64,000 nt of DNA from the NCBI GenBank assembly GCA_031701365.1, contig GCA_031701365.1_4118.1, one strand, 5' to 3'. Below, in pieces: positions 6,137-41,758 of the stretch (within the stretch, counting starts at the first letter, position 1; every line of letters begins with the position of its first letter). This stretch comes from Escherichia coli. GTDB taxonomy: Bacteria; Pseudomonadota; Gammaproteobacteria; Enterobacterales; Enterobacteriaceae. The notes beneath the pieces were generated by a model that searched no databases, had not been told where the DNA came from, and saw only the letters and a program-made list of their open reading frames with translations. The translations under genes were made by a program, and so were the position numbers.

Positions 6137-6565
6137 ATGAATATCGAACAAACTATCCGTGAACATTCTTTCTTCGCTCCAGAAACTGGTCGTGTTATTG
6201 AGAGCGTCAAAATCGAAGAACTAATGGTCAATGTTAAATACAAAGAACCAAATGATGAGATTAGCAGTACTTTTTGTGCTCTACGTGCACCATTCCGTAA
6301 TGAAAAAGCTAAGAAACCAGCATATGTTCTTGCCATTGCACTGGGTTGTGTTGTAAAACTTGCAGTTGATGAAAATCTTCTGAATATTAAAGTTGCACCA
6401 AGCAATGACGATGAAAACATTGATTTGAACTTTGATGGTTCTCTTGATGAAGATGTATTTTTCCAACAGTCACTTGTTTACGACTTCCGTACAGTGACAC
6501 ATTCTCACATCAAGTTCATTAATGAAATGGTTGAGATTGTTGCTGAATACGAAGAATCTCTCTAA
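6137..6565 (+). CDS. FFQ-motif family protein
   Basis: 142 aa; C-terminal 'DEDVFFQQSLVYDF'. Confidence 0.6.
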   Translation: MNIEQTIREHSFFAPETGRVIESVKIEELMVNVKYKEPNDEISSTFCALRAPFRNEKAKKPAYVLAIALGCVVKLAVDENLLNIKVAPSNDDENIDLNFDGSLDEDVFFQQSLVYDFRTVTHSHIKFINEMVEIVAEYEESL

Positions 6566-8194: not shown

Positions 8195-8599
8195 ATGGTA
8201 AGTTTACTAGATATTGACAATACCAGTTTAGTGCTGGTGAAAAAAGGTTTAATTCCCAATTCTACAAAAATTGATTATGCTGTTATTGAAACAAATATGG
8301 GAAATATCTGGTATGATTCAGAAAGTGATATTGTGATTAGCTGTGTAGACAGTGATCGTTCTGAATGTTGTAGAGTCGGGCATGACGGACAATTTGTTTT
8401 TGAATTTCGTTATTGGAAGGACTCAAAATTTCACCAAGAACTGGTTGCATTGTCAAATGAACTGTATACAGAAGAAACTTTCTTCATGGAAAGTACTATT
8501 AATAATGTTGGTTCAGTAACGTATGAGCACTATAAAAAAGTATATGCACTATTCAGAGAAGTTATGAAAATTATCAGAACTGCTGAAGGTAAAGAATAA
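8195..8599 (+). CDS. FFQ-motif family protein
   Basis: 'TEETFFMESTINNVGSVTYEHY'. Confidence 0.6.
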   Translation: MVSLLDIDNTSLVLVKKGLIPNSTKIDYAVIETNMGNIWYDSESDIVISCVDSDRSECCRVGHDGQFVFEFRYWKDSKFHQELVALSNELYTEETFFMESTINNVGSVTYEHYKKVYALFREVMKIIRTAEGKE

Positions 8600-8600
8600 C

Positions 8601-8978
8601 ATGACTACTATATATGATATTTTGGGTGTTCTGAGTAAAAATATAGATGATGATTTTGTTATTGTTCAAGATACTAGAAATACATTTCAACTACCATTAG
8701 GTTCACCAGATAGGTTAATTTTTAATAGATACTCAAATGAACTAACTTACATCCATGATGGGATTGCAATTGTATCAGTTTCTATAAACGACTATACAAT
8801 ACGATATGTATATGACTTCAACGATTATTGTACAAGAATCCACAGTATTGATATTTCCGAAGAGGAACTATTCCAATTGTCAGTGATTGAGAAAAATGTA
8901 ATAGGAATTACAGAAATTGATATTATTAAAAAAGCATTAAACTATACAAATATAAGAATTAATGGTGGGTGCAGATGA
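8601..8978 (+). CDS. FFQ-motif family protein
   Basis: 'SEEELFQLSVIEKNVIGITEID'. Confidence 0.6.
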   Translation: MTTIYDILGVLSKNIDDDFVIVQDTRNTFQLPLGSPDRLIFNRYSNELTYIHDGIAIVSVSINDYTIRYVYDFNDYCTRIHSIDISEEELFQLSVIEKNVIGITEIDIIKKALNYTNIRINGGCR

Positions 8979-9430
8979 ATGTTGACGAAATAAAAAATCA
9001 TTTTGAAATTGCAATGTCATGTGAATTTGACACACAACGTGTTCATTACCCGAAAGAACATATACGCATTTGTTGTGAATTGTCAGATGATTGTAATATT
9101 TTTATTGGAAAAACCTATGACATGATCGATCTTTCATGTATAGATCCATTGGAAAGAAAAACAAAATATTTATATCTGTACAACACAACATCAGATACGA
9201 TTGCAATACAACTAATATCAACCACAACATCCCAAAGTTATTATAACATAACTGAGGTTAGTAGTTTAACGTTAACCGAAGAAGGATTCTTTCAACAATC
9301 GCTTATTCGTGAAATTGGTGTTAGTTATGATGAGTTAAATGTATTAGTAGATTGTTTTGAAAAATTGAGTACTTTTGTATTATCCCTTTTTAATATACAG
9401 TCGCAAAATCCAATGGTGGTGAAATGCTAA
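8969..9430 (+). CDS. FFQ-motif family protein
   Basis: 'TEEGFFQQSLIREIGVSYDELN'. Confidence 0.6.
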   Translation: MQMNVDEIKNHFEIAMSCEFDTQRVHYPKEHIRICCELSDDCNIFIGKTYDMIDLSCIDPLERKTKYLYLYNTTSDTIAIQLISTTTSQSYYNITEVSSLTLTEEGFFQQSLIREIGVSYDELNVLVDCFEKLSTFVLSLFNIQSQNPMVVKC

Positions 9431-9864
9431 ATCCAAGTAAATTTCTCCACTTACTTTCGATAACATCAATACCGGATCTTACCAGTGAAACTAATGAATA
9501 TCGTGAAGCTGGGGTGGTGTCTATGGAACTCGATACATTTGACCACAAATGCTATGTGACATATGACCCACCGCGTTATGGTAAAGAACATTCTTCTTTT
9601 ATTTTTGTATTCGTATACACTGTATATGATAATACAACACTTGATGATGTTTGTATTGACACTTACGAAATTTGTGATAATATCATAACTGATGACAACA
9701 ATAACTCATTTGATATGTCACTATATAACACAGAAGAATCGTTGTTTCAACTTAGTACTGTTATTGATGCACCATCATTAGAAGATATAAAACAATTTCA
9801 CGAACATCTTGACGCAGTTCGTGAGATGTTCTATAATCATTATCCAGAAGTAGAGTTCAATTAA
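9424..9864 (+). CDS. FFQ-motif family protein
   Basis: 'TEESLFQLSTVIDAPSLEDIKQF'. Confidence 0.6.
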   Translation: MLNPSKFLHLLSITSIPDLTSETNEYREAGVVSMELDTFDHKCYVTYDPPRYGKEHSSFIFVFVYTVYDNTTLDDVCIDTYEICDNIITDDNNNSFDMSLYNTEESLFQLSTVIDAPSLEDIKQFHEHLDAVREMFYNHYPEVEFN

Positions 9865-10178: not shown

Positions 10179-10469
10179 GTGATGATGATTTTTATGACGA
10201 ACGATATGGAGATGATGATGAGTGAACATAGTGCTGTGCTTAAAAAGATTTTAAAGGATCTTGATGGTGAGTTTAATGTCACAGAAGAAGAATATCAGAA
10301 TTGGAAGAAAGGTTTTGAACAACTAACCGAGTACGATAAAGTGTTCAATATGATTGGCGTAATTAGCCAGTACTTACTCGGTGGAGGACGTGCAAGTGCT
10401 TCAATTCTGGCATCTGCAATCATCTGTACATCACGATGGTGTGATGAAAAAAGTTTGGAAGATTTCTAA
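10179..10469 (+). CDS. hypothetical protein (Met-rich N-terminus, start uncertain)
   Basis: 96 aa ORF; several candidate ATGs; a 25-aa acidic ORF 10148..10225 overlaps the start. Confidence 0.4.
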   Translation: MMMIFMTNDMEMMMSEHSAVLKKILKDLDGEFNVTEEEYQNWKKGFEQLTEYDKVFNMIGVISQYLLGGGRASASILASAIICTSRWCDEKSLEDF

Positions 10470-10521
10470 ATAAGATGCTATAATATATTATAGTACCTTA
10501 ACAATATAAAAAGGATTTTAT

Positions 10522-11382
10522 ATGAAACCTATCCGAGTACTTTCTCTTTTTAATGGAATGAGTGTGGGATATATGGCATTGCAAGATGCTGGTATCCCAG
10601 TTGAAAAATATTATTCATCCGAAATTGATAAGTACGCAATAGCTGAATCTCAATCTAACTTTCCTGATATTATCCAATTGGGTGATGTAACTAAGTGGAG
10701 AGAATGGGATATTGAGTGGGACAAAATAGATTTATTAATGGGTGGTTTCCCATGCCAAGCTTGGTCAGTTGCAGGTAAACAGGGTGGTTTAAATGATATA
10801 CGTGGGCAGTTATTTTTAGTAATGGTTGAAATTTTTGATCATATCAAAAGTCTCAATCCTAACTTGAAATTTCTGTTTGAAAATGTTAAAATGAAGGAAG
10901 ATTTCAAAGAATACATTAATAGTATTTTAGGAATCACGCCAGTACTGATAAACTCCCAGCATTATACGCCTCACTTCAGGCAGAGATATTACTGGTACAG
11001 TACTGATAAGCTTTTTATACCACCTGCATTATCCAATGCACCTAAACTTCAAGATATTATTGAAGATGGTTGGTACACTGACAGAACCGCTTCGTACTGT
11101 ATAGATGCTAACTATTTTAAAGGTGGTGATTGTAACCAGTACTTTAATAAATCCAGACGACAATTGGTGTTTCGTGACCCAGTGATCAGTCGTCAATATC
11201 TATTAGAGAATGGCAAAAGAAATATTGACTATAGACACTTAAGTGTAGTAGAATGTTGTAAATTACAGGGTGTTCCTGAAGATTTCTTTAAAGTGTCTAG
11301 TAAGACACAAGCATACAAAATGCTTGGGAATGGATGGACTATGCCAGTTATATCACATTTACTAAGAGAGATATTCTTTTGA
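10522..11382 (+). CDS. DNA (cytosine-5)-methyltransferase, orphan
   Basis: 286 aa; motif I-like 'LSLFNGMSVG', catalytic 'GGFPCQAWS' (PCQ), 'FENV' (ENV), C-terminal 'GNGWTMPV'. Confidence 0.75.
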   Translation: MKPIRVLSLFNGMSVGYMALQDAGIPVEKYYSSEIDKYAIAESQSNFPDIIQLGDVTKWREWDIEWDKIDLLMGGFPCQAWSVAGKQGGLNDIRGQLFLVMVEIFDHIKSLNPNLKFLFENVKMKEDFKEYINSILGITPVLINSQHYTPHFRQRYYWYSTDKLFIPPALSNAPKLQDIIEDGWYTDRTASYCIDANYFKGGDCNQYFNKSRRQLVFRDPVISRQYLLENGKRNIDYRHLSVVECCKLQGVPEDFFKVSSKTQAYKMLGNGWTMPVISHLLREIFF

Positions 11383-11864
11383 ACATAAACAAATACCAAA
11401 CTTATATAAAACGTACAGAAAGTTTCAAACGGCTGGCTGTAAAATCTGAATTAGAATTTAATTTGTATTATCCTAATATTGGTGATGAGGTATTTTATTG
11501 CTCTCATTCAAAGAATGGAACTTTACTTAAATCGGGTAAAGGAACTATTGTTGATATGACCGCAAATTTCAGAGGTAAACTTAATGTAATCTACAAAGTA
11601 CAAGATTCAAGTACTGAGTGTATTCATGAAGTGATGCATAACATACCTGCATATCCAAAAGATTTTGTTCAGCTAATATCTCGAAGGGAGAAACCTATGT
11701 TTTATTGTGGTTACGACAAATTAACCAAACAAATTATTCCTAATACTATGGGAAAATTTAAAAGTGATGTGAAATCTGAACTTGAAAAGAAATTTGGCAC
11801 GTCATGGGAAACTGAAAACGAGTTTATCGAAATTCGTTTAATTGAAATTACTATACTTGAATAA
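11334..11864 (+). CDS. hypothetical protein
   Basis: 176 aa ORF overlapping the methyltransferase 3' end by 49 nt; start uncertain. Confidence 0.45.
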   Translation: MDYASYITFTKRDILLNINKYQTYIKRTESFKRLAVKSELEFNLYYPNIGDEVFYCSHSKNGTLLKSGKGTIVDMTANFRGKLNVIYKVQDSSTECIHEVMHNIPAYPKDFVQLISRREKPMFYCGYDKLTKQIIPNTMGKFKSDVKSELEKKFGTSWETENEFIEIRLIEITILE

Positions 11865-11870
11865 TTACAA

Positions 11871-11894
11871 ATCCACGCAATGCGTGGATTTTTC
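11871..11894 (+). terminator. rho-independent terminator (ATCCACGC-AAT-GCGTGGAT + T-run)
   Basis: Perfect 8-bp stem then TTTTTC. Confidence 0.6.
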
Positions 11895-11906
11895 ATAGGT
11901 GCATAT

Positions 11907-12110
11907 ATGCCAAATCCTTATGTTAAAATTATTAATAATATTCTCGATTCATGGGAAGATGTTATTACTGGTAAAAAGAAACCATCACCAGTACATGCTT
12001 TATCTGGGAAACTTCAATTCAGAATGTCAAACCAAACTGAAACATTTAATAATCATGATATTTGCATTACATTAAAAACACCTATTAGTATTGTAATTAA
12101 AAAAAAATAA
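11907..12110 (+). CDS. hypothetical protein; possible N-terminal part of a frameshifted FFQ-family gene
   Basis: ATG 11907 after AGGTG; ends at TAA immediately after an A9 run (12099-12107). Confidence 0.4.
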   Translation: MPNPYVKIINNILDSWEDVITGKKKPSPVHALSGKLQFRMSNQTETFNNHDICITLKTPISIVIKKK

Positions 12111-12120
12111 AGATGATGAA

Positions 12121-12423
12121 TTGACATTATCTATTGGTCGTGATAAAATCATTTTAAGTAATTTGTCTGAAGAAGAATTCTTTCAAAGAAGTACTATTAT
12201 CGATATGAAAGATTTCACATATGAATCATTGGTTGAACTCAATACACGTTTTAACGATATTCAGGAACGATTGCGACCAATTCTTCGTATCGAAGAAGAA
12301 GCCTGGATTGAAAGTATTAGGAAGATGCAAGAAATGTTGAAAGAAAATATTAACAATCTGGGTAAAGCTACAATGGAATTTGGTAAAACTTTTAAACTGA
12401 ACTTTTTAAAGGATCGTAAATGA
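12121..12423 (+). CDS. FFQ-motif family protein fragment (TTG start in track; possibly fused to 11907..12110 by frameshift)
   Basis: 'SEEEFFQRSTIIDM' near N-terminus; frame open back to 12097 with no ATG. Confidence 0.4.
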   Translation: MTLSIGRDKIILSNLSEEEFFQRSTIIDMKDFTYESLVELNTRFNDIQERLRPILRIEEEAWIESIRKMQEMLKENINNLGKATMEFGKTFKLNFLKDRK

Positions 12424-12875
12424 AAATTGATAATTTGATTCATGTTTTAGGATCTTTACATAAAATATTATCACATCTACATGAGATAAAGAAACTGGGA
12501 TTTAACATCTCAAATTCAATTGAAACTACATTTAAATATCAATCAATTACTGGTGATGGTTATTACATAATCGAATATACTTATGAAACCGATCCAGACT
12601 TCTATCCTCTTACGTTGAGAATTTATCCAACAAATCCGAGAGGAATTCACGACATATCATCAATTTCACTTGATCCAGATGGTGAAACGAGTATTGAATA
12701 CAATAATGATTCAAAACCAGAATTTTACATTGATGATATTAAAATGATGTTCAACGATGAATATGTGTTCCAGCAAAGTACAGTGCATGATGTTGGAAGT
12801 ACTAATGGACAATTTTGGAATACATGTTATTATCATATGATTGAAATTTGTAAATTACTAAAAGGCGATGATTAA
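12420..12875 (+). CDS. FFQ-motif family protein
   Basis: 'DEYVFQQSTVHDVG'. Confidence 0.6.
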   Translation: MKIDNLIHVLGSLHKILSHLHEIKKLGFNISNSIETTFKYQSITGDGYYIIEYTYETDPDFYPLTLRIYPTNPRGIHDISSISLDPDGETSIEYNNDSKPEFYIDDIKMMFNDEYVFQQSTVHDVGSTNGQFWNTCYYHMIEICKLLKGDD

Positions 12876-13258
12876 TGAAATACAGCATTGAAGTACATTA
12901 CACTACAGGGGACACTGAAAATTGTTATGACGTTCTTAATACAATTGATATTCAATGGTCTTCTAAAGAGGAAGCAGTTGCTGCTTTACAGTGCCTAAAA
13001 GAGCATTGGGTGTTTTATATGAAGCAAGATAATTGCTATACTAAAGAACACGAAACTATCGTTGAAAATGCTAAACAAAAAGAGTGGTTTGACCCAATAT
13101 CACCAGAATATTCATTCTTGGTTAAAGTTGGCGATGTGACAGTTCCATTACGAACACCGTGGAACGGCTACTTTGAAACTCTTCATAATGCACGAGTTGT
13201 CGCTGTTGATAATCCTGAGCAAATCGATTTCGATTCATTGGACTGGAAAAAACTATGA
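12875..13258 (+). CDS. hypothetical protein
   Basis: 127 aa ORF. Confidence 0.5.
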   Translation: MKYSIEVHYTTGDTENCYDVLNTIDIQWSSKEEAVAALQCLKEHWVFYMKQDNCYTKEHETIVENAKQKEWFDPISPEYSFLVKVGDVTVPLRTPWNGYFETLHNARVVAVDNPEQIDFDSLDWKKL

Positions 13259-13698
13259 CAGTACTGCACCAATTGAAGAAGGTTAAGCATCCAGTTGTAT
13301 ACGAGGATTGGAAGCGACAAAAGACAATGGGTGATTTTTATTTCCCAAAATCTAAAGTTCTTGCGAATTCAAGATGTACATATGTCACACATAATGGTAA
13401 AGATACCGTATTTGTTGAAATGGGTTTCAATCCATCAAATACAATGTTCAGTACTAACCAGACATTTTACAAATTTCATATCAATAAAGATTCATTTTCA
13501 ATTATGATTATAAAATTTTTAGTTGAAGATCTGGTATACAGTGAAGAAAAAGTTCCTTTATCATTAGTGGATATTCCTTATGATAATTTAGAGGAAATGT
13601 ACTTCCAACAGTTGACAGTGCAAGAAAACTTCGGTATGATAGGACTTCAAGAGTTAGAGATGATTAAGCAAATTCGTGATATCTACTTTAAGGAGTAA
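13255..13698 (+). CDS. FFQ-motif family protein
   Basis: 'EEMYFQQLTVQENFG'. Confidence 0.6.
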   Translation: MTVLHQLKKVKHPVVYEDWKRQKTMGDFYFPKSKVLANSRCTYVTHNGKDTVFVEMGFNPSNTMFSTNQTFYKFHINKDSFSIMIIKFLVEDLVYSEEKVPLSLVDIPYDNLEEMYFQQLTVQENFGMIGLQELEMIKQIRDIYFKE

Positions 13699-20334: not shown

Positions 20335-20670
<336 letters not shown>

Positions 20671-20671
20671 A

Positions 20672-20854
20672 ATGACACACGAAGAATGGATGTCCAAACA
20701 GCATAAAGAACATGACTGCTTTGGGAATGGTATTCGTCAGGTACATTATGATATTCTCAAAGATATAAATTTATTCATAAAATATGTTTTGGATGAAAAT
20801 AAACATTGGTTTATATATGAGATTGCATATAGAAACTCAAATAAACAAAAATAA
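20672..20854 (+). CDS. MTHEEW-family mini-protein
   Basis: Starts MTHEEWM; ends 'HWFIYEIAYR' like the 20153 copy ('HWFIYELAIR'). Confidence 0.45.
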   Translation: MTHEEWMSKQHKEHDCFGNGIRQVHYDILKDINLFIKYVLDENKHWFIYEIAYRNSNKQK

Positions 20855-20868
20855 ATAAGGAATATATT

Positions 20869-21087
20869 ATGGAAACAACGTTATTTGAAGTTATTCAAGC
20901 ATTAAAAACTGGTGATGACATTCAAGTATTGCTACATGGTTATCGTTTAAAAGGCACTGTGGTTTTAGTTAATGACACAACGTTAGTTATTGCCGAAACA
21001 AATCCATATGATAGTAATCAAGTTGCTAATATCCATATTGATATTAAAAGCATTATTGGTGTAGGCGTAAATAAAAATCAAGAATAA
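20869..21087 (+). CDS. hypothetical protein
   Basis: 72 aa ORF. Confidence 0.45.
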   Translation: METTLFEVIQALKTGDDIQVLLHGYRLKGTVVLVNDTTLVIAETNPYDSNQVANIHIDIKSIIGVGVNKNQE

Positions 21088-21165
21088 CAAATGTTTTTGA
21101 AAAAACCAGAAAATGAATGATTTTTTTGGGACAACTCAAAAATATATGATATAATAATTAGTACA

Positions 21166-21255
<90 letters not shown>

Positions 21256-21259
21256 ATAT

Positions 21260-21361
<102 letters not shown>

Positions 21362-21364
21362 AAC

Positions 21365-21487
21365 CATGACGCATGAAGAATGGATGAATGACATTAATTT
21401 TAGATATGCAGGTTTCGGTAACTGGAGAAAGTATCATTGGGAAATCATGTCAGACCCAGCAGAATACGATAAACTTATAAACCATGA
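21365..21487 (+). CDS. MTHEEW-family mini-protein
   Basis: 40 aa starting MTHEEWM. Confidence 0.35.
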
Positions 21488-21526
21488 AGCGTATCCGTGG
21501 TTCTTTATTGAAATAATGGTACGAAC

Positions 21527-21692
<166 letters not shown>

Positions 21693-21700
21693 AAAAAAAG

Positions 21701-21733
<33 letters not shown>

Positions 21734-21734
21734 A

Positions 21735-22114
<380 letters not shown>

Positions 22115-22171
22115 CTAAATAATTCAGTACTGAGAATATTAATATGTTTAAAGATGAACGTCCAGATTTGT

Positions 22172-22209
<38 letters not shown>

Positions 22210-22214
22210 GAATT

Positions 22215-22557
22215 CCACAATCAGACGTATATGGTGTAAGTTACGTCGATGCTATCCAGAACAAGATCTCTGGTACTCTAGGAAGTGGTGAATGTTAACC
22301 TAGACGGGTTTGATAATTGGACGATAGGCAATTATTACTTGACTAGCAGGTTGAAACTAGAGGTGACAGTCCTTCACCAAACTGGAAAACCGGATGGACT
22401 TTTATTTAAAAGGGTAAGGCGTGGAAATATGTTTACAGAAGTTGCTTTTAGTAGCCTGTACGCACCACGTCAAGGTAGCCGAAAGGTAAGTTAAAACGGG
22501 TGGTTATAAAGCTGAATTAACAGCGGCGTTTAAAAGCGTCACCATCCATTTTTTTTT
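22215..22557 (+). ncRNA. candidate small stable RNA inside the tRNA cluster
   Basis: ~340 nt without a convincing ORF, higher GC, promoter directly upstream, ends in a T9 run (22549-22557). Confidence 0.3.
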
Positions 22558-22573
22558 AATTAAAGTTGGCAAT

Positions 22574-23067
<494 letters not shown>

Positions 23068-23070
23068 TAC

Positions 23071-23226
<156 letters not shown>

Positions 23227-23247
23227 CATAAACAATGAGAGGTATAA

Positions 23248-23765
<518 letters not shown>

Positions 23766-23805
23766 CAGGGGAGGTTGTGATTCCCGATTCAGTAGTTTTA
23801 AAGCT

Positions 23806-23914
<109 letters not shown>

Positions 23915-24075
23915 AGAGGTACTTAGAGTATACTCAGTTCACCTTTAGCTAAAATGGTCACGGTAGAATATTGTTGCAACAGTATTCAGTACTACTTTTT
24001 TAATTGACATAACTTTGAATGGAGTGTATTATGTTCCAAGAAGAAAACTGGGGTTTTTAACATAACGGGGAATGT

Positions 24076-24218
<143 letters not shown>

Positions 24219-24261
24219 AATGCGAAAGAGTATGGAGACTTGTTGGTTATCTTACTTCCTA

Positions 24262-24350
<89 letters not shown>

Positions 24351-41039: not shown

Positions 41040-41240
41040 ATGTTTACTTTATATCTTGCAGTAGTACTAACTAATGGTGAAATCACTCGCACCGTTGGTG
41101 AAGGTGTATATAAAACACCTGATCAGTGTTACTCTGCAACTCATTGGCCTCGTGATGCTGGTGATGAATCTCGCACTGAATACAAATGTATGAAGATTAA
41201 AGGTGACTTTGTAAATCTAAAGGTTATTGAGACTAAGTAA
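41040..41240 (+). CDS. small protein (hydrophobic N-terminus)
   Basis: 66 aa. Confidence 0.45.
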   Translation: MFTLYLAVVLTNGEITRTVGEGVYKTPDQCYSATHWPRDAGDESRTEYKCMKIKGDFVNLKVIETK

Positions 41241-41758
41241 TGGATATTAATGAGTTGTTGAAATTAGTGTTTAATCGTGAACGCCGCGATACAAGACCAA
41301 TTGAATATCAAGATGTGATACGCATTGAAACTGATTTCTGTTATGGTAAAACAACTCATGATCTTTTGAATCTCTCTGGAAAACGATATGCTGATATTTG
41401 TTTTTCAGAGAGAAGTGATGGTTCAGAAATAACAAGTACTGATATTGTTTGTTACGCACGCAGTGCTGATAAATCTTATGAAATAGAACTTATATATTCC
41501 CCTAGTTCTAAAACAAATCATCACCGCCATATTTTATATGATGTTTACACACCACCTGGTATTGCTGAATATTTTGTTATTGATTATAGTACTGAAGAAA
41601 ATGTGTTTCAACAAAGTTTGATTCATAACTTTGAGGTGAATGATCCATTAGTACCAAAGTTGTTCAAACTACTTGACACCATCGATGTTGACTTTGAATT
41701 TGTTATGTGCATTAGAACTTCTTTATTCAATGAATTCATGGAACTTTTTAATATATGA
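41240..41758 (+). CDS. FFQ-motif family protein
   Basis: 'TEENVFQQSLIHNFEV'. Confidence 0.55.
   Translation: MDINELLKLVFNRERRDTRPIEYQDVIRIETDFCYGKTTHDLLNLSGKRYADICFSERSDGSEITSTDIVCYARSADKSYEIELIYSPSSKTNHHRHILYDVYTPPGIAEYFVIDYSTEENVFQQSLIHNFEVNDPLVPKLFKLLDTIDVDFEFVMCIRTSLFNEFMELFNI

What the first reader, a model, noticed from the sequence alone, without database searches (positions are those of the whole stretch)
10522..11382. Orphan C5-cytosine DNA methyltransferase
The ORF has the catalytic PCQ motif (GGFPCQAWS), an ENV motif (FENV) and an N-terminal FxGxG-like AdoMet motif, with no adjacent restriction endonuclease candidate. Established knowledge: T-even phages classically use hydroxymethyl-cytosine plus Dam-type adenine methylation. 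A C5-MTase suggests either unmodified cytosine in this phage with site-specific protection, or an anti-restriction role. Its target could be related to the enriched AGTACT motif, but that is speculation.
Basis: partly seen in the sequence, partly recalled or inferred. Interest (0 to 1): 0.5.

Follow-up and report, generated by a model that had tools for sequence, protein, structure and literature searches.

The report
Known jumbo-phage orphan cytosine methyltransferase
The ORF is a real, intact DNA cytosine-C5 methyltransferase with no partner nuclease. It is the already-annotated gp91 gene of 121Q/PBECO4-type jumbo coliphages rather than a T-even gene, it most likely shields phage DNA from host restriction enzymes, and it is probably unrelated to the very abundant AGTACT motif.

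Summary
Observation confirmed. ORF 10522-11382 (+, 286 aa) is a complete C5-cytosine DNA methyltransferase: Pfam PF00145 E=7.5e-38, all catalytic motifs invariant in the family, AlphaFold pLDDT 93. No nuclease, Vsr, TET or second methyltransferase lies in the 64 kb.

Context corrected. The window is an Asteriusvirus (Rak2-like jumbo phage, 99.4-99.6% identical to 121Q and SHEFM2K), not a T-even phage. The identical protein is already annotated (121Q gp91) and mentioned in the literature, but it is uncharacterised.

New detail. It is a short-recognition-domain form. Its nearest solved relatives are DNMT3A/B/C catalytic domains (TM ~0.8), not E. coli Dcm.

Target unknown. The best lead is CCWGG. 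Nanopore data on two Erwinia jumbo phages with 76-78% identical orthologues show 5mC at CCWGG, and CCWGG is the one GC-rich short palindrome these phages do not purge.

The AGTACT link is disfavoured. Those same phages are even richer in AGTACT, yet it was not reported modified. AGTACT sites show no C-to-T decay. Unrelated phages carrying this enzyme family avoid AGTACT.

Two side observations appear unreported. (C)AGTACT(G) is 9-12-fold over-represented across the clade (888-945 sites per genome). GCGC is absent from whole 340-348 kb genomes (131-197 expected).

The parts
10455..10484 (+). Sigma-70-like promoter candidate (TTGGAA, 18 nt spacer, TG-extended TATAAT), 38 nt upstream of the start codon. 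It suggests early, host-RNA-polymerase-driven expression.
   Evidence: 10 of 12 consensus matches with a TG extension. The number of such sites in the region is not above the shuffle expectation, so only position supports it (inference).
10511..10515 (+). Shine-Dalgarno-like AAGGA, 6 nt before the ATG.
   Evidence: Read directly from the sequence.
10522..11382 (+). Orphan DNA cytosine-C5 methyltransferase CDS (286 aa plus stop), orthologue of 121Q gp91.
10537..10569 (+). Motif I (aa 6-16, VLSLFNGMSVG), the AdoMet-binding loop.
   Evidence: F10 and G12 are invariant in the family. It aligns to DNMT3 LFDGIATG.
10741..10767 (+). Motif IV (aa 74-82, GGFPCQAWS), containing the catalytic nucleophile Cys78.
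   Evidence: P77 and C78 are invariant and Q79 is >=90% conserved. This segment is deleted in Salmonella phage SD-1_S14.
10873..10887 (+). Motif VI (aa 118-122, LFENV). Glu120 protonates cytosine N3.
   Evidence: E120, N121 and V122 are invariant.
10972..10995 (+). Motif VIII (aa 151-158, HFRQRYYW).
   Evidence: R153 and R155 are invariant.
11080..11172 (+). Core of the short target-recognition region (aa 187-217, DRTASYCIDANYFKGGDCNQYFNKSRRQLVF).
   Evidence: Conserved in Rak2-like, Proteus RS51pmB, PHB05 and ICP1 homologues. The Rak2-like forms lack the ~45-aa insert of PHB05/ICP1 that follows it. It aligns to the DNMT3 TRD loop.
11230..11358 (+). Motifs IX-X (aa 237-279: YRHLSVVECCKLQGVPEDFF ... 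QAYKMLGNGWTMPVISH).
   Evidence: R238, E244, G269, N270 and G271 are invariant.
11334..11864 (+). Overlapping downstream ORF (121Q gp92 orthologue; start ATG 11334, or TTG 11379 overlapping the methyltransferase stop codon). Function unknown. It is probably co-transcribed but is not a conserved partner.
   Evidence: phrog_28599, unknown function; no Pfam or PADLOC hit. Different genes follow the methyltransferase in RaK2, CBB, Hallingskeid and Kaldavass.

Best explanation
ORF 10522-11382 encodes an active, stand-alone (orphan) S-adenosyl-methionine-dependent DNA cytosine-C5 methyltransferase of a Rak2-like jumbo myovirus (genus Asteriusvirus). It probably uses the standard mechanism of the family: the target cytosine is flipped out, Cys78 of the PCQ motif attacks C6, Glu120 of ENV protonates N3, and the methyl group of AdoMet is transferred to C5. 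It is probably transcribed early from a host-type promoter and methylates a short sequence in replicating phage DNA. Those sites then escape host Type II restriction enzymes. This complements the phage's main anti-restriction strategy, which is wholesale purging of palindromic sites. It has no cognate nuclease. Its recognition domain is unusually short (DNMT3-like architecture). The target is not established. My best guess (about 0.4) is CCWGG, the same mark the host Dcm enzyme makes. That mark would protect against EcoRII-type enzymes while staying invisible to the methylation-dependent nuclease McrBC, which needs purine-5mC. Shown here: gene, motifs, fold, orphan status, clade conservation. 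Inferred: activity in vivo, timing, protective role, target.
For: Identity and integrity: PF00145 E=7.5e-38; TIGR00675 above cutoff; all catalytic residues invariant across 39 homologues; AlphaFold2 pLDDT 93.2, pTM 0.90; Foldseek and profile searches hit C5 methyltransferases over the full length.

Orphan status: no nuclease, defence or partner family among the neighbours or anywhere in the window, and the downstream gene is not conserved across genera.

Purifying selection: orthologues at 64-100% identity occur in five genera of Rak2-like phages.

Protective-methylation context: RaK2 DNA is reported to be resistant to methylation-sensitive enzymes and bisulfite-positive for 5mC (PMC3622015). 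The same phages purge many palindromes completely (13-15 hexamer palindromes and GCGC absent from whole genomes).

CCWGG lead: Hallingskeid CDS0275 and Kaldavass CDS0246 are the orthologues. Their DNA carries 5mC at CCWGG, and Hallingskeid has two methyltransferases and two motifs. A phage grown on a Pantoea host of the same family (Erwiniaceae) is cut by Dcm-sensitive EcoRII, so that host lacks Dcm activity. CCWGG is at 0.8-1.6x expectation in all Rak2-like genomes, while CCSGG, GGWCC, GGSCC, CCGG and GGCC are purged (TH47 whole genome CCWGG 240/218 against CCSGG 20/77).

Promoter position.
Against: No experiment exists on this protein. The nanopore authors state that host methylases were not excluded for CCWGG, and E. 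coli and Klebsiella hosts have Dcm.

The enzyme is not a Dcm orthologue. BLASTP to E. coli Dcm aligns only motifs IV-VIII (E=3e-8), the Dcm subfamily model scores 21 bits against a cutoff of 710, and a ~60-aa recognition region reading a 5-bp site is unusual.

The ICP1 homologue shares the recognition core but sits in DNA with no CCWGG at all (0 against 16 expected), although it carries an extra ~45-aa insert.

RaK2 bisulfite data point to a CpG-containing site.

The substitution spectrum between relatives shows no context-specific C-to-T hot spot.

Two Salmonella-grown sibling phages carry different frameshifting deletions in the gene, so it is dispensable on at least one host.
Confidence: 0.7

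Rival explanations
1. It is a CpG-type or otherwise low-specificity methyltransferase. With its DNMT3-like minimal recognition domain it reads only 2-4 bp, for example CG or a CG-containing tetranucleotide, and methylates many sites across the phage genome.
For: The nearest solved relatives are the CpG-specific DNMT3A/B/C over the full length (E~1e-36, TM ~0.8). The RaK2 paper reports methylated CpG by bisulfite and resistance to CpG-sensitive enzymes. In the RaK2 lineage CCGG, CGCG and CCSGG are not purged (0.98-1.07). There is a modest generic CpG excess in C/T polymorphism (~1.3x at synonymous sites).
Against: In the window's own genus CpG-containing palindromes are purged (TH47: GCGC 0/197, CCGG 0.51, CGCG 0.72, CCSGG 0.26), which would be unnecessary if CpG were methylated. 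The RaK2 enzyme differs in exactly the catalytic loop (SPCTDVS plus an 8-aa insert). Nanopore profiling of two closer orthologue-bearing phages found no CG motif. ACG/GCG methylation would expose the phage to McrBC in K-12, on which Sharanji grows (McrBC specificity is from my own knowledge).
Confidence: 0.15
2. It methylates AGTACT (or GTAC), and the hyper-abundant palindrome plus the orphan methyltransferase form a viral counterpart of the cyanobacterial HIP1 system.
For: AGTACT is the commonest hexamer in the window. It is 9-12x over-represented clade-wide and sits at the DNA level in all codon phases (138 in genes against 39.6 +/- 5.8 after synonymous shuffling). Its sites are conserved above background (0.70 against 0.43). 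Other enterobacterial phages avoid it, so unprotected sites look risky. HIP1 gives a precedent for a hyper-abundant palindrome tied to orphan methyltransferases (PMC4390886, PMC5861425).
Against: Hallingskeid and Kaldavass have 78 and 65 AGTACT per 18.9 kb plus the orthologue, yet AGTACT was not among the modified motifs. There is no C-to-T decay at AGTA[C]T. PHB05, ICP1 and RS51pmB carry the same enzyme family with a conserved recognition core but have 0, 1 and 0 AGTACT sites. A-5mC would be an McrBC substrate at ~2.6 sites per kb.
Confidence: 0.04
3. Its substrate is host DNA, not phage DNA. The enzyme recognises GCGC, of which the phage has none and the host has ~6 per kb. It thereby marks the host chromosome, for example for attack by methylation-dependent nucleases such as McrBC, while the phage stays unmarked.
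For: GCGC is completely absent from two whole genomes (0/197 and 0/131) and from every Rak2-like sample, and is abundant in E. coli (5.9 per kb). In PHB05 and ICP1, which carry long-form homologues, GCGC is the only GC-only tetranucleotide palindrome that is not avoided (1.10 and 1.28 against 0.17-0.79 for the others). M.HhaI (GCGC) is the best bacterial structure match (E~1e-30). A host-only target would leave no trace in virion-DNA methylomes.
Against: This is entirely indirect. The purge is explained more simply by restriction avoidance, since 13-15 other palindromes are also purged. The short form lacks the recognition insert of the PHB05/ICP1 enzymes. No methyl-dependent nuclease was identified.
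Confidence: 0.05
4. It is a DNMT2-like tRNA cytosine-C5 methyltransferase acting on the phage's own tRNAs.
For: The gene lies in the tRNA-rich accessory region: six tRNA genes at 20.4-24.3 kb, tRNAs within 10 kb in CBB, Hallingskeid and Kaldavass, and a peptidyl-tRNA hydrolase nearby in CBB and RaK2. DNMT2 shows that a protein with all DNA-methyltransferase motifs can be a tRNA enzyme (PMC3227630).
Against: Similarity to DNMT2 is much weaker (E 1e-16 to 1e-18, N-terminal half only) than to DNMT3, HhaI or HaeIII. No CFT motif is present in the recognition region (read from the sequence). Co-location is loose in a region of >100 miscellaneous small genes.
Confidence: 0.03
5. It is an inactive or currently useless relic.
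For: Two sibling phages have independent frameshifting deletions (179 bp and 64 bp) in the gene. No phage-specific methylation motif has been unambiguously assigned to it.
Against: All catalytic residues are invariant and the recognition core is conserved across five genera and several unrelated phage lineages. The model is confident and complete.
Confidence: 0.04

Closest known systems
Escherichia phage 121Q gp91 / PBECO4 / phAPEC6 / SHEFM2K 'DNA-cytosine methyltransferase' (Asteriusvirus)
   Same: The same gene. Protein identity is 99.7-100% and the surrounding DNA is 98.8-99.6% identical. It is already annotated as a cytosine methyltransferase and mentioned as 'suggesting protective DNA methylation' (PMC7247149).
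   Different: Nothing of substance. None of these has been characterised biochemically, and some records mislabel it 'HaeIII methylase'.
Orthologues in other Rak2-like jumbo phages: RaK2 gp194, CBB gp580 (locus tag FDG95_gp580), GAP32, Hallingskeid CDS0275, Kaldavass CDS0246
   Same: 64-78% identical, same short form, same genomic neighbourhood type, same AGTACT-rich and GCGC-free genomes. These provide the only experimental hints: 5mC at CCWGG in the Erwinia phages, and methylated CpG in RaK2.
   Different: RaK2 gp194 has a changed motif IV (SPCTDVS) and an 8-aa insert in the catalytic loop. Its genome tolerates CCGG, CGCG and CCSGG, which the window's genus purges, so its specificity may differ.
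Mammalian DNMT3A/3B/3C catalytic domains
   Same: Nearest solved structures by sequence (E~1e-36 with the family profile) and by fold (TM 0.73-0.81, 25-28% identity), aligned end to end at about the same length. Both have only a short TRD loop instead of a large recognition subdomain, and both have the FxGxxxG motif I variant.
   Different: No PWWP or ADD regulatory domains and no DNMT3L-type partner. Motif IV is PCQ rather than PCN. The setting is viral/prokaryotic. CpG specificity was not shown and is compositionally unlikely in this genus. It resembles DNMT3 in architecture but is not a member of that family.
E. coli Dcm / M.EcoRII (CCWGG)
   Same: Possible functional analogue: an orphan C5 methyltransferase making C-5mC-WGG, the mark seen on DNA of orthologue-bearing relatives.
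   Different: Not homologous beyond the catalytic core (29% identity over motifs IV-VIII only; NF007772 21 bits against cutoff 710). It is 286 aa against 472 aa and has no adjacent vsr (compare).
M.HhaI / M.HaeIII (classical Type II R-M methyltransferases)
   Same: Same ten-motif catalytic core and mechanism, with full-length profile alignment (E 1e-30 and 1e-27).
   Different: They have a larger recognition domain and a cognate endonuclease. Here there is none, and the HaeIII target GGCC and the HhaI target GCGC are purged from the phage genome, so the 'HaeIII methylase' label in some records is almost certainly wrong.
Cyanobacterial HIP1 (GCGATCGC) with orphan methyltransferases
   Same: A hyper-abundant short palindrome, conserved above background, in a genome that also encodes orphan methyltransferases (PMC4390886, PMC5861425). 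(C)AGTACT(G) behaves similarly here.
   Different: In HIP1 the methyltransferases demonstrably recognise sub-sites of the palindrome. Here the available methylome data on relatives do not show AGTACT modification.

Membership tests
DNA cytosine-C5 methyltransferase (Pfam PF00145 / TIGR00675) | Score above the curated family thresholds | tested here: met
   PF00145 131.2 bits against cutoff 22; TIGR00675 119.2 against 100.65.
DNA cytosine-C5 methyltransferase (Pfam PF00145 / TIGR00675) | Catalytic motifs I (FxGxG-type), IV (PCQ, Cys nucleophile), VI (ENV), VIII (RxR) and X (GN) present and conserved | tested here: met
   F10, G12, P77, C78, E120, N121, V122, R153, R155, G269 and N270 are invariant in 39 homologues; read directly.
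DNA cytosine-C5 methyltransferase (Pfam PF00145 / TIGR00675) | Two-lobed methyltransferase fold | tested here: met
   AF2 pLDDT 93.2. The top 50 Foldseek PDB hits are all C5 methyltransferases, TM 0.73-0.81.
DNA cytosine-C5 methyltransferase (Pfam PF00145 / TIGR00675) | Methyl transfer to C5 of cytosine in DNA | not testable with these tools
   Indirect evidence only: 5mC in DNA of orthologue-bearing relatives.
Type II restriction-modification system | Cognate restriction endonuclease encoded next to the methyltransferase | tested here: not met
   No nuclease or defence family in the neighbours or in 128 window ORFs. Novel nuclease folds cannot be excluded.
Dcm / M.EcoRII subfamily | Homologous recognition domain and N-terminal extension (subfamily model NF007772) | tested here: not met
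   21.4 bits against cutoff 710. BLASTP to K-12 Dcm covers motifs IV-VIII only. Dcm-type PDB chains match only the C-terminal motifs.
Dcm / M.EcoRII subfamily | Adjacent vsr mismatch endonuclease | tested here: not met
   No Vsr family in the window, unlike the E. coli dcm-vsr overlap.
Dcm / M.EcoRII subfamily | CCWGG specificity | not testable with these tools
   Suggestive only: 5mC at CCWGG in relatives and CCWGG uniquely tolerated.
DNMT3 family | Catalytic domain with a minimal TRD loop and full-length similarity | tested here: met
   E~1e-36 over profile positions 3-274; TM ~0.8 in both directions.
DNMT3 family | N-terminal chromatin-reading domains (PWWP, ADD) and eukaryotic origin | tested here: not met
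   The 286-aa protein is the catalytic domain only and the genome is a phage.
DNMT2 tRNA methyltransferases | Closest similarity to DNMT2 and a CFT motif in the recognition region | tested here: not met
   DNMT2 chains score E 1e-16 to 1e-18 over the N-terminal half only, far behind DNMT3 and HhaI. No CFT tripeptide is present in aa 159-236.
TET/JBP-coupled 5mC hypermodification cassettes | TET/JBP dioxygenase (and a glycosyltransferase) near the methyltransferase | tested here: not met
   No such family in 128 window ORFs. TET/JBP is reported absent from jumbo phages (PMC7824862).
T-even hydroxymethylcytosine system | The genome is a T-even phage with dCMP hydroxymethylase and glucosyltransferases | tested here: not met
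   The genome is Asteriusvirus. None of these families is in the window. They are reported absent in RaK2 and CBB. The rest of this genome was not scanned here.
HIP-type palindrome plus methyltransferase system | Hyper-abundant palindrome under selection | tested here: met
   AGTACT is 9-12x and CAGTACTG 42-80x over expectation. It exceeds the synonymous-shuffle null and its sites are conserved 0.70 against 0.43.
HIP-type palindrome plus methyltransferase system | The methyltransferase recognises the palindrome or a sub-site of it | tested here: inconclusive
   AGTACT was not reported modified in two AGTACT-rich relatives. There is no deamination footprint. The same enzyme family occurs in AGTACT-free phages. 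No direct methylome of this phage exists.

The most novel reading that the evidence does not exclude
The methyltransferase may not be there to protect phage DNA at all. These phages have removed every GCGC from 340-348 kb genomes, while the host carries ~6 per kb. The enzyme family's long-form relatives sit in genomes where GCGC is the one GC-only palindrome left untouched. On this reading, the jumbo-phage enzyme methylates GCGC (or another host-only site) on the host chromosome early in infection. That would turn the host's own methylation-dependent nucleases (McrBC-type, which cut purine-5mC DNA) or a phage nuclease against the host genome, while the site-free phage genome stays invisible. 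This is a 'mark the enemy' inversion of restriction-modification. A related, equally unproven reading ties the enzyme to the hyper-abundant (C)AGTACT(G) palindrome as a viral HIP1-like system.
Probability: 0.05. Interest if true: 0.85.

Novelty: already known. Interest (0 to 1): 0.3.

Why it matters
As a gene call it adds nothing new. Orphan methyltransferases are common in phages, and this exact protein is already in GenBank and in papers.

What remains open, and is now more sharply posed, is its specificity. It belongs to a widespread phage family with a DNMT3-sized, minimal recognition domain, and it is not related to Dcm. Yet the only methylome data on orthologue-bearing phages point to the Dcm mark, CCWGG. 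If confirmed, that would be a compact 'host-mark mimic': it would protect against EcoRII-type enzymes without triggering methylation-dependent restriction. It would also be a second structural solution for reading CCWGG.

The work also shows that these jumbo phages rely mainly on extreme sequence editing. GCGC and 13-15 hexamer palindromes are completely purged, and AGTACT is enriched about ten-fold. That editing is the more surprising biology here, and I found no report of it in the searchable literature.

Tried and rejected
(1) Deamination footprint. I aligned the window to TH47 (84% identity over 41 kb) and ECO103 4-12-1 (96% over 47 kb) and scanned all contexts for excess C/T differences. 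T[C]GA came out as a hot spot (2.6x, p=3e-9; 3.7x, p=7e-7). It collapsed to the generic CpG level (~1.3x) once only synonymous third positions were used. After polarisation with TH47 as outgroup it showed more gains than losses (12 against 4). Rejected as a codon-phase artefact; the spectrum says nothing about the target.

(2) Inferring the target from the principle that a methyltransferase's site must exist in its own genome. This excludes AGTACT for PHB05, ICP1 and RS51pmB, and CCWGG for ICP1. Transfer to the window's enzyme is weakened by the ~45-aa recognition-domain insert in PHB05 and ICP1.

(3) Looking for a named, characterised homologue. 8000 homologues were found, but none of the 120 best hits listed carries a specificity; their names are generic or contradictory ('HpaII', 'HaeIII', 'DNMT1').

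(4) Literature on the specificity of the phi92-like and ICP1 homologues: nothing found.

(5) Whether Erwinia hosts have Dcm: only indirect evidence from one Pantoea strain.

(6) TET-coupled hypermodification, Vsr partnership and R-M membership were rejected on gene content.

(7) The 'HaeIII methylase' annotation was rejected, because GGCC is purged (0.41-0.52) rather than protected.

(8) A DNMT3 ancestry claim was not pursued. The PDB is sparsely sampled for bacterial enzymes, and the literature leaves the prokaryotic precursor open.
Full report
**1. The observation**

An ORF of 286 codons runs from ATG 10522 to TGA 11382 on the + strand. It matches the C5-cytosine DNA methyltransferase family far beyond chance:
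- Pfam PF00145, E=7.5e-38, 131 bits against a gathering score of 22.
- NCBIfam TIGR00675 'dcm' superfamily, 119 bits against 100.65.
- phrog_116 'DNA methyltransferase', E=5e-60 over the full length.

So are motifs II, III, VIII (R153-Q-R155), IX and X (GNG 269-271). In an alignment of 39 homologues at 51-86% identity every catalytic residue is invariant. An AlphaFold2 model built on that alignment is confident throughout (mean pLDDT 93.2, pTM 0.90, no segment below 50). The protein is not 'catalytically dead on closer alignment'.

**2. Where the window comes from**

The 3 kb around the gene is 99.4-99.6% identical to Escherichia phages IA-38, SHEFM2K, SP27, slurp01, phAPEC6, G17, Sharanji and 121Q, and 98.8% identical to PBECO4. 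These are 348-373 kb jumbo myoviruses of the genus Asteriusvirus, part of the Rak2-like group ('group 2.2' of PMC7824862). They are not T-even phages.

The protein is 100% identical to the PBECO4, phAPEC6 and SHEFM2K proteins and 99.7% identical to 121Q gp91, which is annotated 'DNA-cytosine-methyltransferase'. [quoted passage not shown] The Sharanji paper calls it a HaeIII methylase (PMC11895373). As a gene call the finding is therefore already known. No paper I could find characterises the enzyme.

**3. Orphan status**

- The eight flanking ORFs have no significant Pfam match and only unknown-function PHROG families.
- Nine neighbours have no PADLOC defence-model hit, while the methyltransferase itself matches generic 'MTase_II' and 'orphan methyltransferase' models.
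- A Pfam scan of 128 ORFs covering the whole window found only 12 families: a DenV-type glycosylase, a sigma factor, an exoribonuclease-like domain and AAA/STAND ATPases. There was no R-M nuclease, Vsr, TET/JBP, hydroxymethylase or second methyltransferase.
- The ORF that overlaps the 3' end (121Q gp92 orthologue) has unknown function. It is replaced by different genes in RaK2, CBB, Hallingskeid and Kaldavass, so it is not a conserved partner.
- A sigma-70-like promoter with an extended -10 (10455-10484) and an AAGGA ribosome-binding site precede the gene. This fits early expression, but it is a consensus match only.

**4. What kind of C5 methyltransferase**

The closest solved structures are the catalytic domains of DNMT3A, 3B and 3C. 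This holds for the single sequence (E~3e-23, aligned 2-282), for the family profile (E~1e-36 to 1e-34 over the full length), and for the fold (all top 50 Foldseek hits, TM 0.73-0.81 in both directions, 25-28% identity). M.HhaI (1e-30), M.HaeIII (1e-27), DNMT2 (1e-16 to 1e-18), M.MpeI (1e-11) and Dcm-type chains (2.5e-11, C-terminal motifs only) follow.

The reason is architectural. Between motif VIII and motif IX there are only about 80 residues. Their conserved core, DRxKSYCIDANYxKGG...QYFNKSRRQLVF (aa 187-217), aligns with the DNMT3 TRD loop.

Homologues in unrelated phages share this core. These include the phi92-like coliphage PHB05 (51% identity by tblastn), Vibrio phage ICP1 (44%) and Proteus phage RS51pmB (48%). 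PHB05 and ICP1 carry an extra ~45-aa insert after it, and RS51pmB is shorter still.

The jumbo-phage enzyme is thus a short-recognition-domain member of a large, mostly phage and metagenomic family. All 8000 scored candidates had E<=1e-10, many of them 268-300 aa. It resembles DNMT3 in build, but it has none of the DNMT3 regulatory domains and I do not file it there.

It is not a Dcm orthologue. BLASTP against E. coli K-12 Dcm aligns only motifs IV-VIII (29% identity over 114 aligned positions, E=3e-8), and the Dcm subfamily model scores 21 bits against a cutoff of 710.

**5. What relatives tell us about methylation**

- *RaK2* (gp194, 64% identical). The authors report, as data not shown, that the DNA is cut only by enzymes insensitive to Dam, Dcm, CpG and EcoKI methylation. 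They also report that bisulfite sequencing shows a methylated CpG; the motif itself is lost from the text held here. No hydroxymethylase or glucosyltransferase genes were found (PMC3622015).
- *CBB.* It has adenine and cytosine methylases and no HMC genes (PMC5259590).
- *Erwinia jumbo phages Hallingskeid and Kaldavass.* Nanopore comparison of native and amplified DNA found 6mA at GATC and 5mC at CCWGG in both, plus TGCAT in Kaldavass. The authors caution that host methylases were not excluded (PMC11780129). I confirmed that the methyltransferases they list, CDS0275 and CDS0246, are the orthologues of this ORF at 78% and 76.5% identity. Hallingskeid has two phage methyltransferases and two motifs.
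- *Indirect support for a phage origin of the CCWGG mark.* A phage grown on Pantoea agglomerans, which is in the same family as Erwinia, is cut by Dcm-sensitive EcoRII but resists Dam-sensitive MboI. That host therefore has Dam but no Dcm activity (PMC8306585).

**6. Composition as evidence on the target**

These phages purge restriction-type palindromes to an extreme degree. In 339.9 kb of the Asteriusvirus TH47 and in a complete 347.5 kb RaK2-like genome, GCGC is absent (197 and 131 expected). In addition, 15 and 13 hexamer palindromes with at least 8 expected copies are absent, including CTTAAG (0 against 80 expected) in the RaK2-like genome.

Against that background CCWGG stands out as tolerated:

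| Site (TH47, whole genome) | Observed/expected | Ratio |
|---|---|---|
| CCWGG | 240/218 | 1.10 |
| CCSGG | 20/77 | 0.26 |
| GGWCC | 102/207 | 0.49 |
| GGSCC | 56/90 | 0.62 |
| CCGG | 115/227 | 0.51 |
| GGCC | 139/267 | 0.52 |

The same contrast appears in the window, CBB, Hallingskeid and Kaldavass.

'Purge or protect' logic therefore fits CCWGG being methylated, by the host, by the phage, or by both. C-5mC-WGG is also the one cytosine mark that enterobacterial hosts tolerate by construction, because McrBC needs purine-5mC (from my own knowledge). This fits Sharanji growing on K-12 MG1655.

In the RaK2 lineage CCGG, CGCG and CCSGG are not purged (0.98-1.07). That agrees with its published CpG methylation and with its divergent catalytic loop (SPCTDVS plus an 8-aa insert). 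So specificity probably differs between RaK2 and the window's genus.

Counter-evidence for CCWGG is the ICP1 homologue. It shares the recognition core but lies in DNA with no CCWGG at all (0 against 16 expected). ICP1 does, however, carry the extra insert.

**7. The AGTACT idea**

The enrichment is real and large.
- *Size.* There are 167 sites in the window against 17.6 +/- 4.5 in shuffles. AGTACT is the commonest hexamer in the window, and flanking preferences extend it to CAGTACTG (38 against 0.74 expected).
- *A clade trait.* AGTACT is 9-13x over expectation in Asteriusvirus, RaK2, CBB, Hallingskeid and Kaldavass. Whole genomes carry 888 and 945 sites, and CAGTACTG is 42-80x over expectation.
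- *A DNA-level signal.* There are 138 sites in genes against 39.6 +/- 5.8 after synonymous-codon shuffling. All three codon phases are used, and density is higher between genes.
- *Under selection.* 70% of sites are conserved against TH47, compared with 43% for any hexamer, and there is turnover in both directions.

None of this ties it to the methyltransferase.
- The two nanopore-profiled phages have the densest AGTACT (78 and 65 sites per 18.9 kb), but AGTACT was not among the modified motifs.
- The C of AGTACT shows fewer, not more, C/T differences (0.026 against 0.11).
- PHB05, ICP1 and RS51pmB carry the same enzyme family and have 0, 1 and 0 AGTACT sites against 6-11 expected.

I rate this link at about 4%.

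**8. Attempts to read the target from the substitution spectrum failed**

A raw scan flagged T[C]GA as a hot spot. It disappeared after restricting to synonymous third positions, and the polarised counts show more gains than losses. Only a generic ~1.3x CpG effect remains.

**9. Dispensability**

Two Asteriusvirus isolates propagated on Salmonella Typhimurium carry different frameshifting deletions inside the gene. SD-1_S14 lacks 179 bp, including the PCQ motif. SD-6_S16 lacks 64 bp just downstream of it. Their siblings SD-2_S15 and SD-15_S21 are intact. The gene is therefore accessory, as expected for an anti-restriction function. These assemblies carry many other deletions, so I do not read this as counter-selection.

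**10. Verdict**

It is wrong on the T-even framing and probably wrong on AGTACT.

The gene is already known, and its target is not. The most likely mechanism is early, site-specific protective methylation of phage DNA, which complements massive site purging. CCWGG is the leading candidate target (about 0.4), and a CpG-type or other short site is the next candidate.

The more surprising biology is compositional: a virus-wide highly iterated palindrome and the complete elimination of GCGC. No paper in the searchable library holds both 'AGTACT' and 'jumbo phage'. I did not search the literature for the GCGC purge.

Noticed in passing
whole window (167 sites, e.g. 10536, 10941, 10999, 11138 inside the methyltransferase gene); L002, L003, L006-L009; whole genomes OU509535.1 and MT446416.1: (C)AGTACT(G) is a highly iterated palindrome. 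It is the commonest hexamer in the window, 9-12x over expectation in five genera of Rak2-like jumbo phages, with 888-945 sites per genome and CAGTACTG 42-80x over expectation. It is independent of codon usage, present in all codon phases and in intergenic DNA, and its sites are conserved above background. Host E. coli DNA has ~0.25 per kb against ~2.6 per kb in the phage. One 20-kb stretch of the RaK2-like genome (positions 30-50 kb) has three times the average density. Function unknown, and no report was found in the searchable literature.
   Followed up: partly
whole window; L002, L003, L006-L009; whole genomes OU509535.1 (347.5 kb) and MT446416.1 (339.9 kb): GCGC is completely absent: 0 against 27 expected in the window, and 0 against 131 and 197 in whole genomes. 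Host DNA has ~6 per kb. Another 13-15 hexamer palindromes are also absent (e.g. CTTAAG 0/80, GCATGC, CTGCAG, CAGCTG, TGGCCA). This could reflect restriction avoidance taken to an extreme, or a GCGC-directed nuclease active in every infection (phage-encoded?). It was not resolved.
   Followed up: partly
L004 (PHB05), L005 (ICP1), L010 (RS51pmB): Phages of other lineages that carry the same methyltransferase family avoid AGTACT (0/11, 1/7, 0/6). In PHB05 and ICP1, GCGC is the only GC-only tetranucleotide palindrome not avoided (1.10 and 1.28 against 0.17-0.79). This hints that the long-form enzymes may protect GCGC. ICP1 has purged CCNGG and GGNCC completely. RS51pmB is 4x enriched in ACCGGT.
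   Followed up: partly
6137-6565, 8195-8599, 8601-8978, 8969-9430, 9424-9864, 12121-12423, 12420-12875, 13255-13698, 41240-41758: A paralogous family of nine small ORFs (100-172 aa) shares a C-terminal motif [ED]E-x-x-F-Q-Q-S-[TL]-[IV] followed by a helix-like stretch. Eight of them flank the methyltransferase gene. No Pfam match, and their PHROG families have unknown function.
   Followed up: partly
11880-12110 and 12121-12423: These two ORFs match the N- and C-terminal parts of one PHROG family (phrog_38573) and correspond to the single intact 171-aa gp93 of 121Q. In this window the gene is split by a stop codon, either as a pseudogene or through a sequencing error.
   Followed up: no
L011 (SD-1_S14) and L012 (SD-6_S16), corresponding to window 10682-10860 and ~10767-10830: Two independent frameshifting deletions (179 bp and 64 bp) lie inside the methyltransferase gene of Salmonella-propagated Asteriusvirus isolates. 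These are natural knockouts usable for a methylome or plating comparison.
   Followed up: yes
whole window and relatives: GATC is depleted to about half of expectation (97/188 in the window; 549/1024 in TH47), even though these phages encode an N6-adenine methyltransferase and relatives carry 6mA at GATC. GCWGC is ~1.6-2x over-represented in most of the Rak2-like genomes sampled (Kaldavass 0.79; e.g. 365/189 in TH47).
   Followed up: no
L009 (Kaldavass), L008 (Hallingskeid): Lineage-specific purges. TGCA is at 0.27 of expectation in Kaldavass, the phage in which TGCAT is reported modified and which has a third methyltransferase. TTAA is at 0.22 in Hallingskeid.
   Followed up: no
20357-24340: A cluster of six tRNA genes (Gly-TCC, Ser-TGA, Ser-GCT, Met-CAT, Asn-GTT, Thr-TGT) lies 9-13 kb downstream of the methyltransferase. 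In other Rak2-like phages the gene lies in a similar tRNA-rich accessory region, near a peptidyl-tRNA hydrolase in CBB and RaK2.
   Followed up: partly
L003 3326-3529 (CBB gp365, locus tag FDG95_gp365): CBB annotates a small 'anti-restriction nuclease' similar to a T4-like phage protein (Arn-type; T4 Arn inhibits McrBC, from memory). It would be relevant to how a 5mC-bearing phage survives methylation-dependent restriction. I did not check whether the window's phage has one.
   Followed up: no
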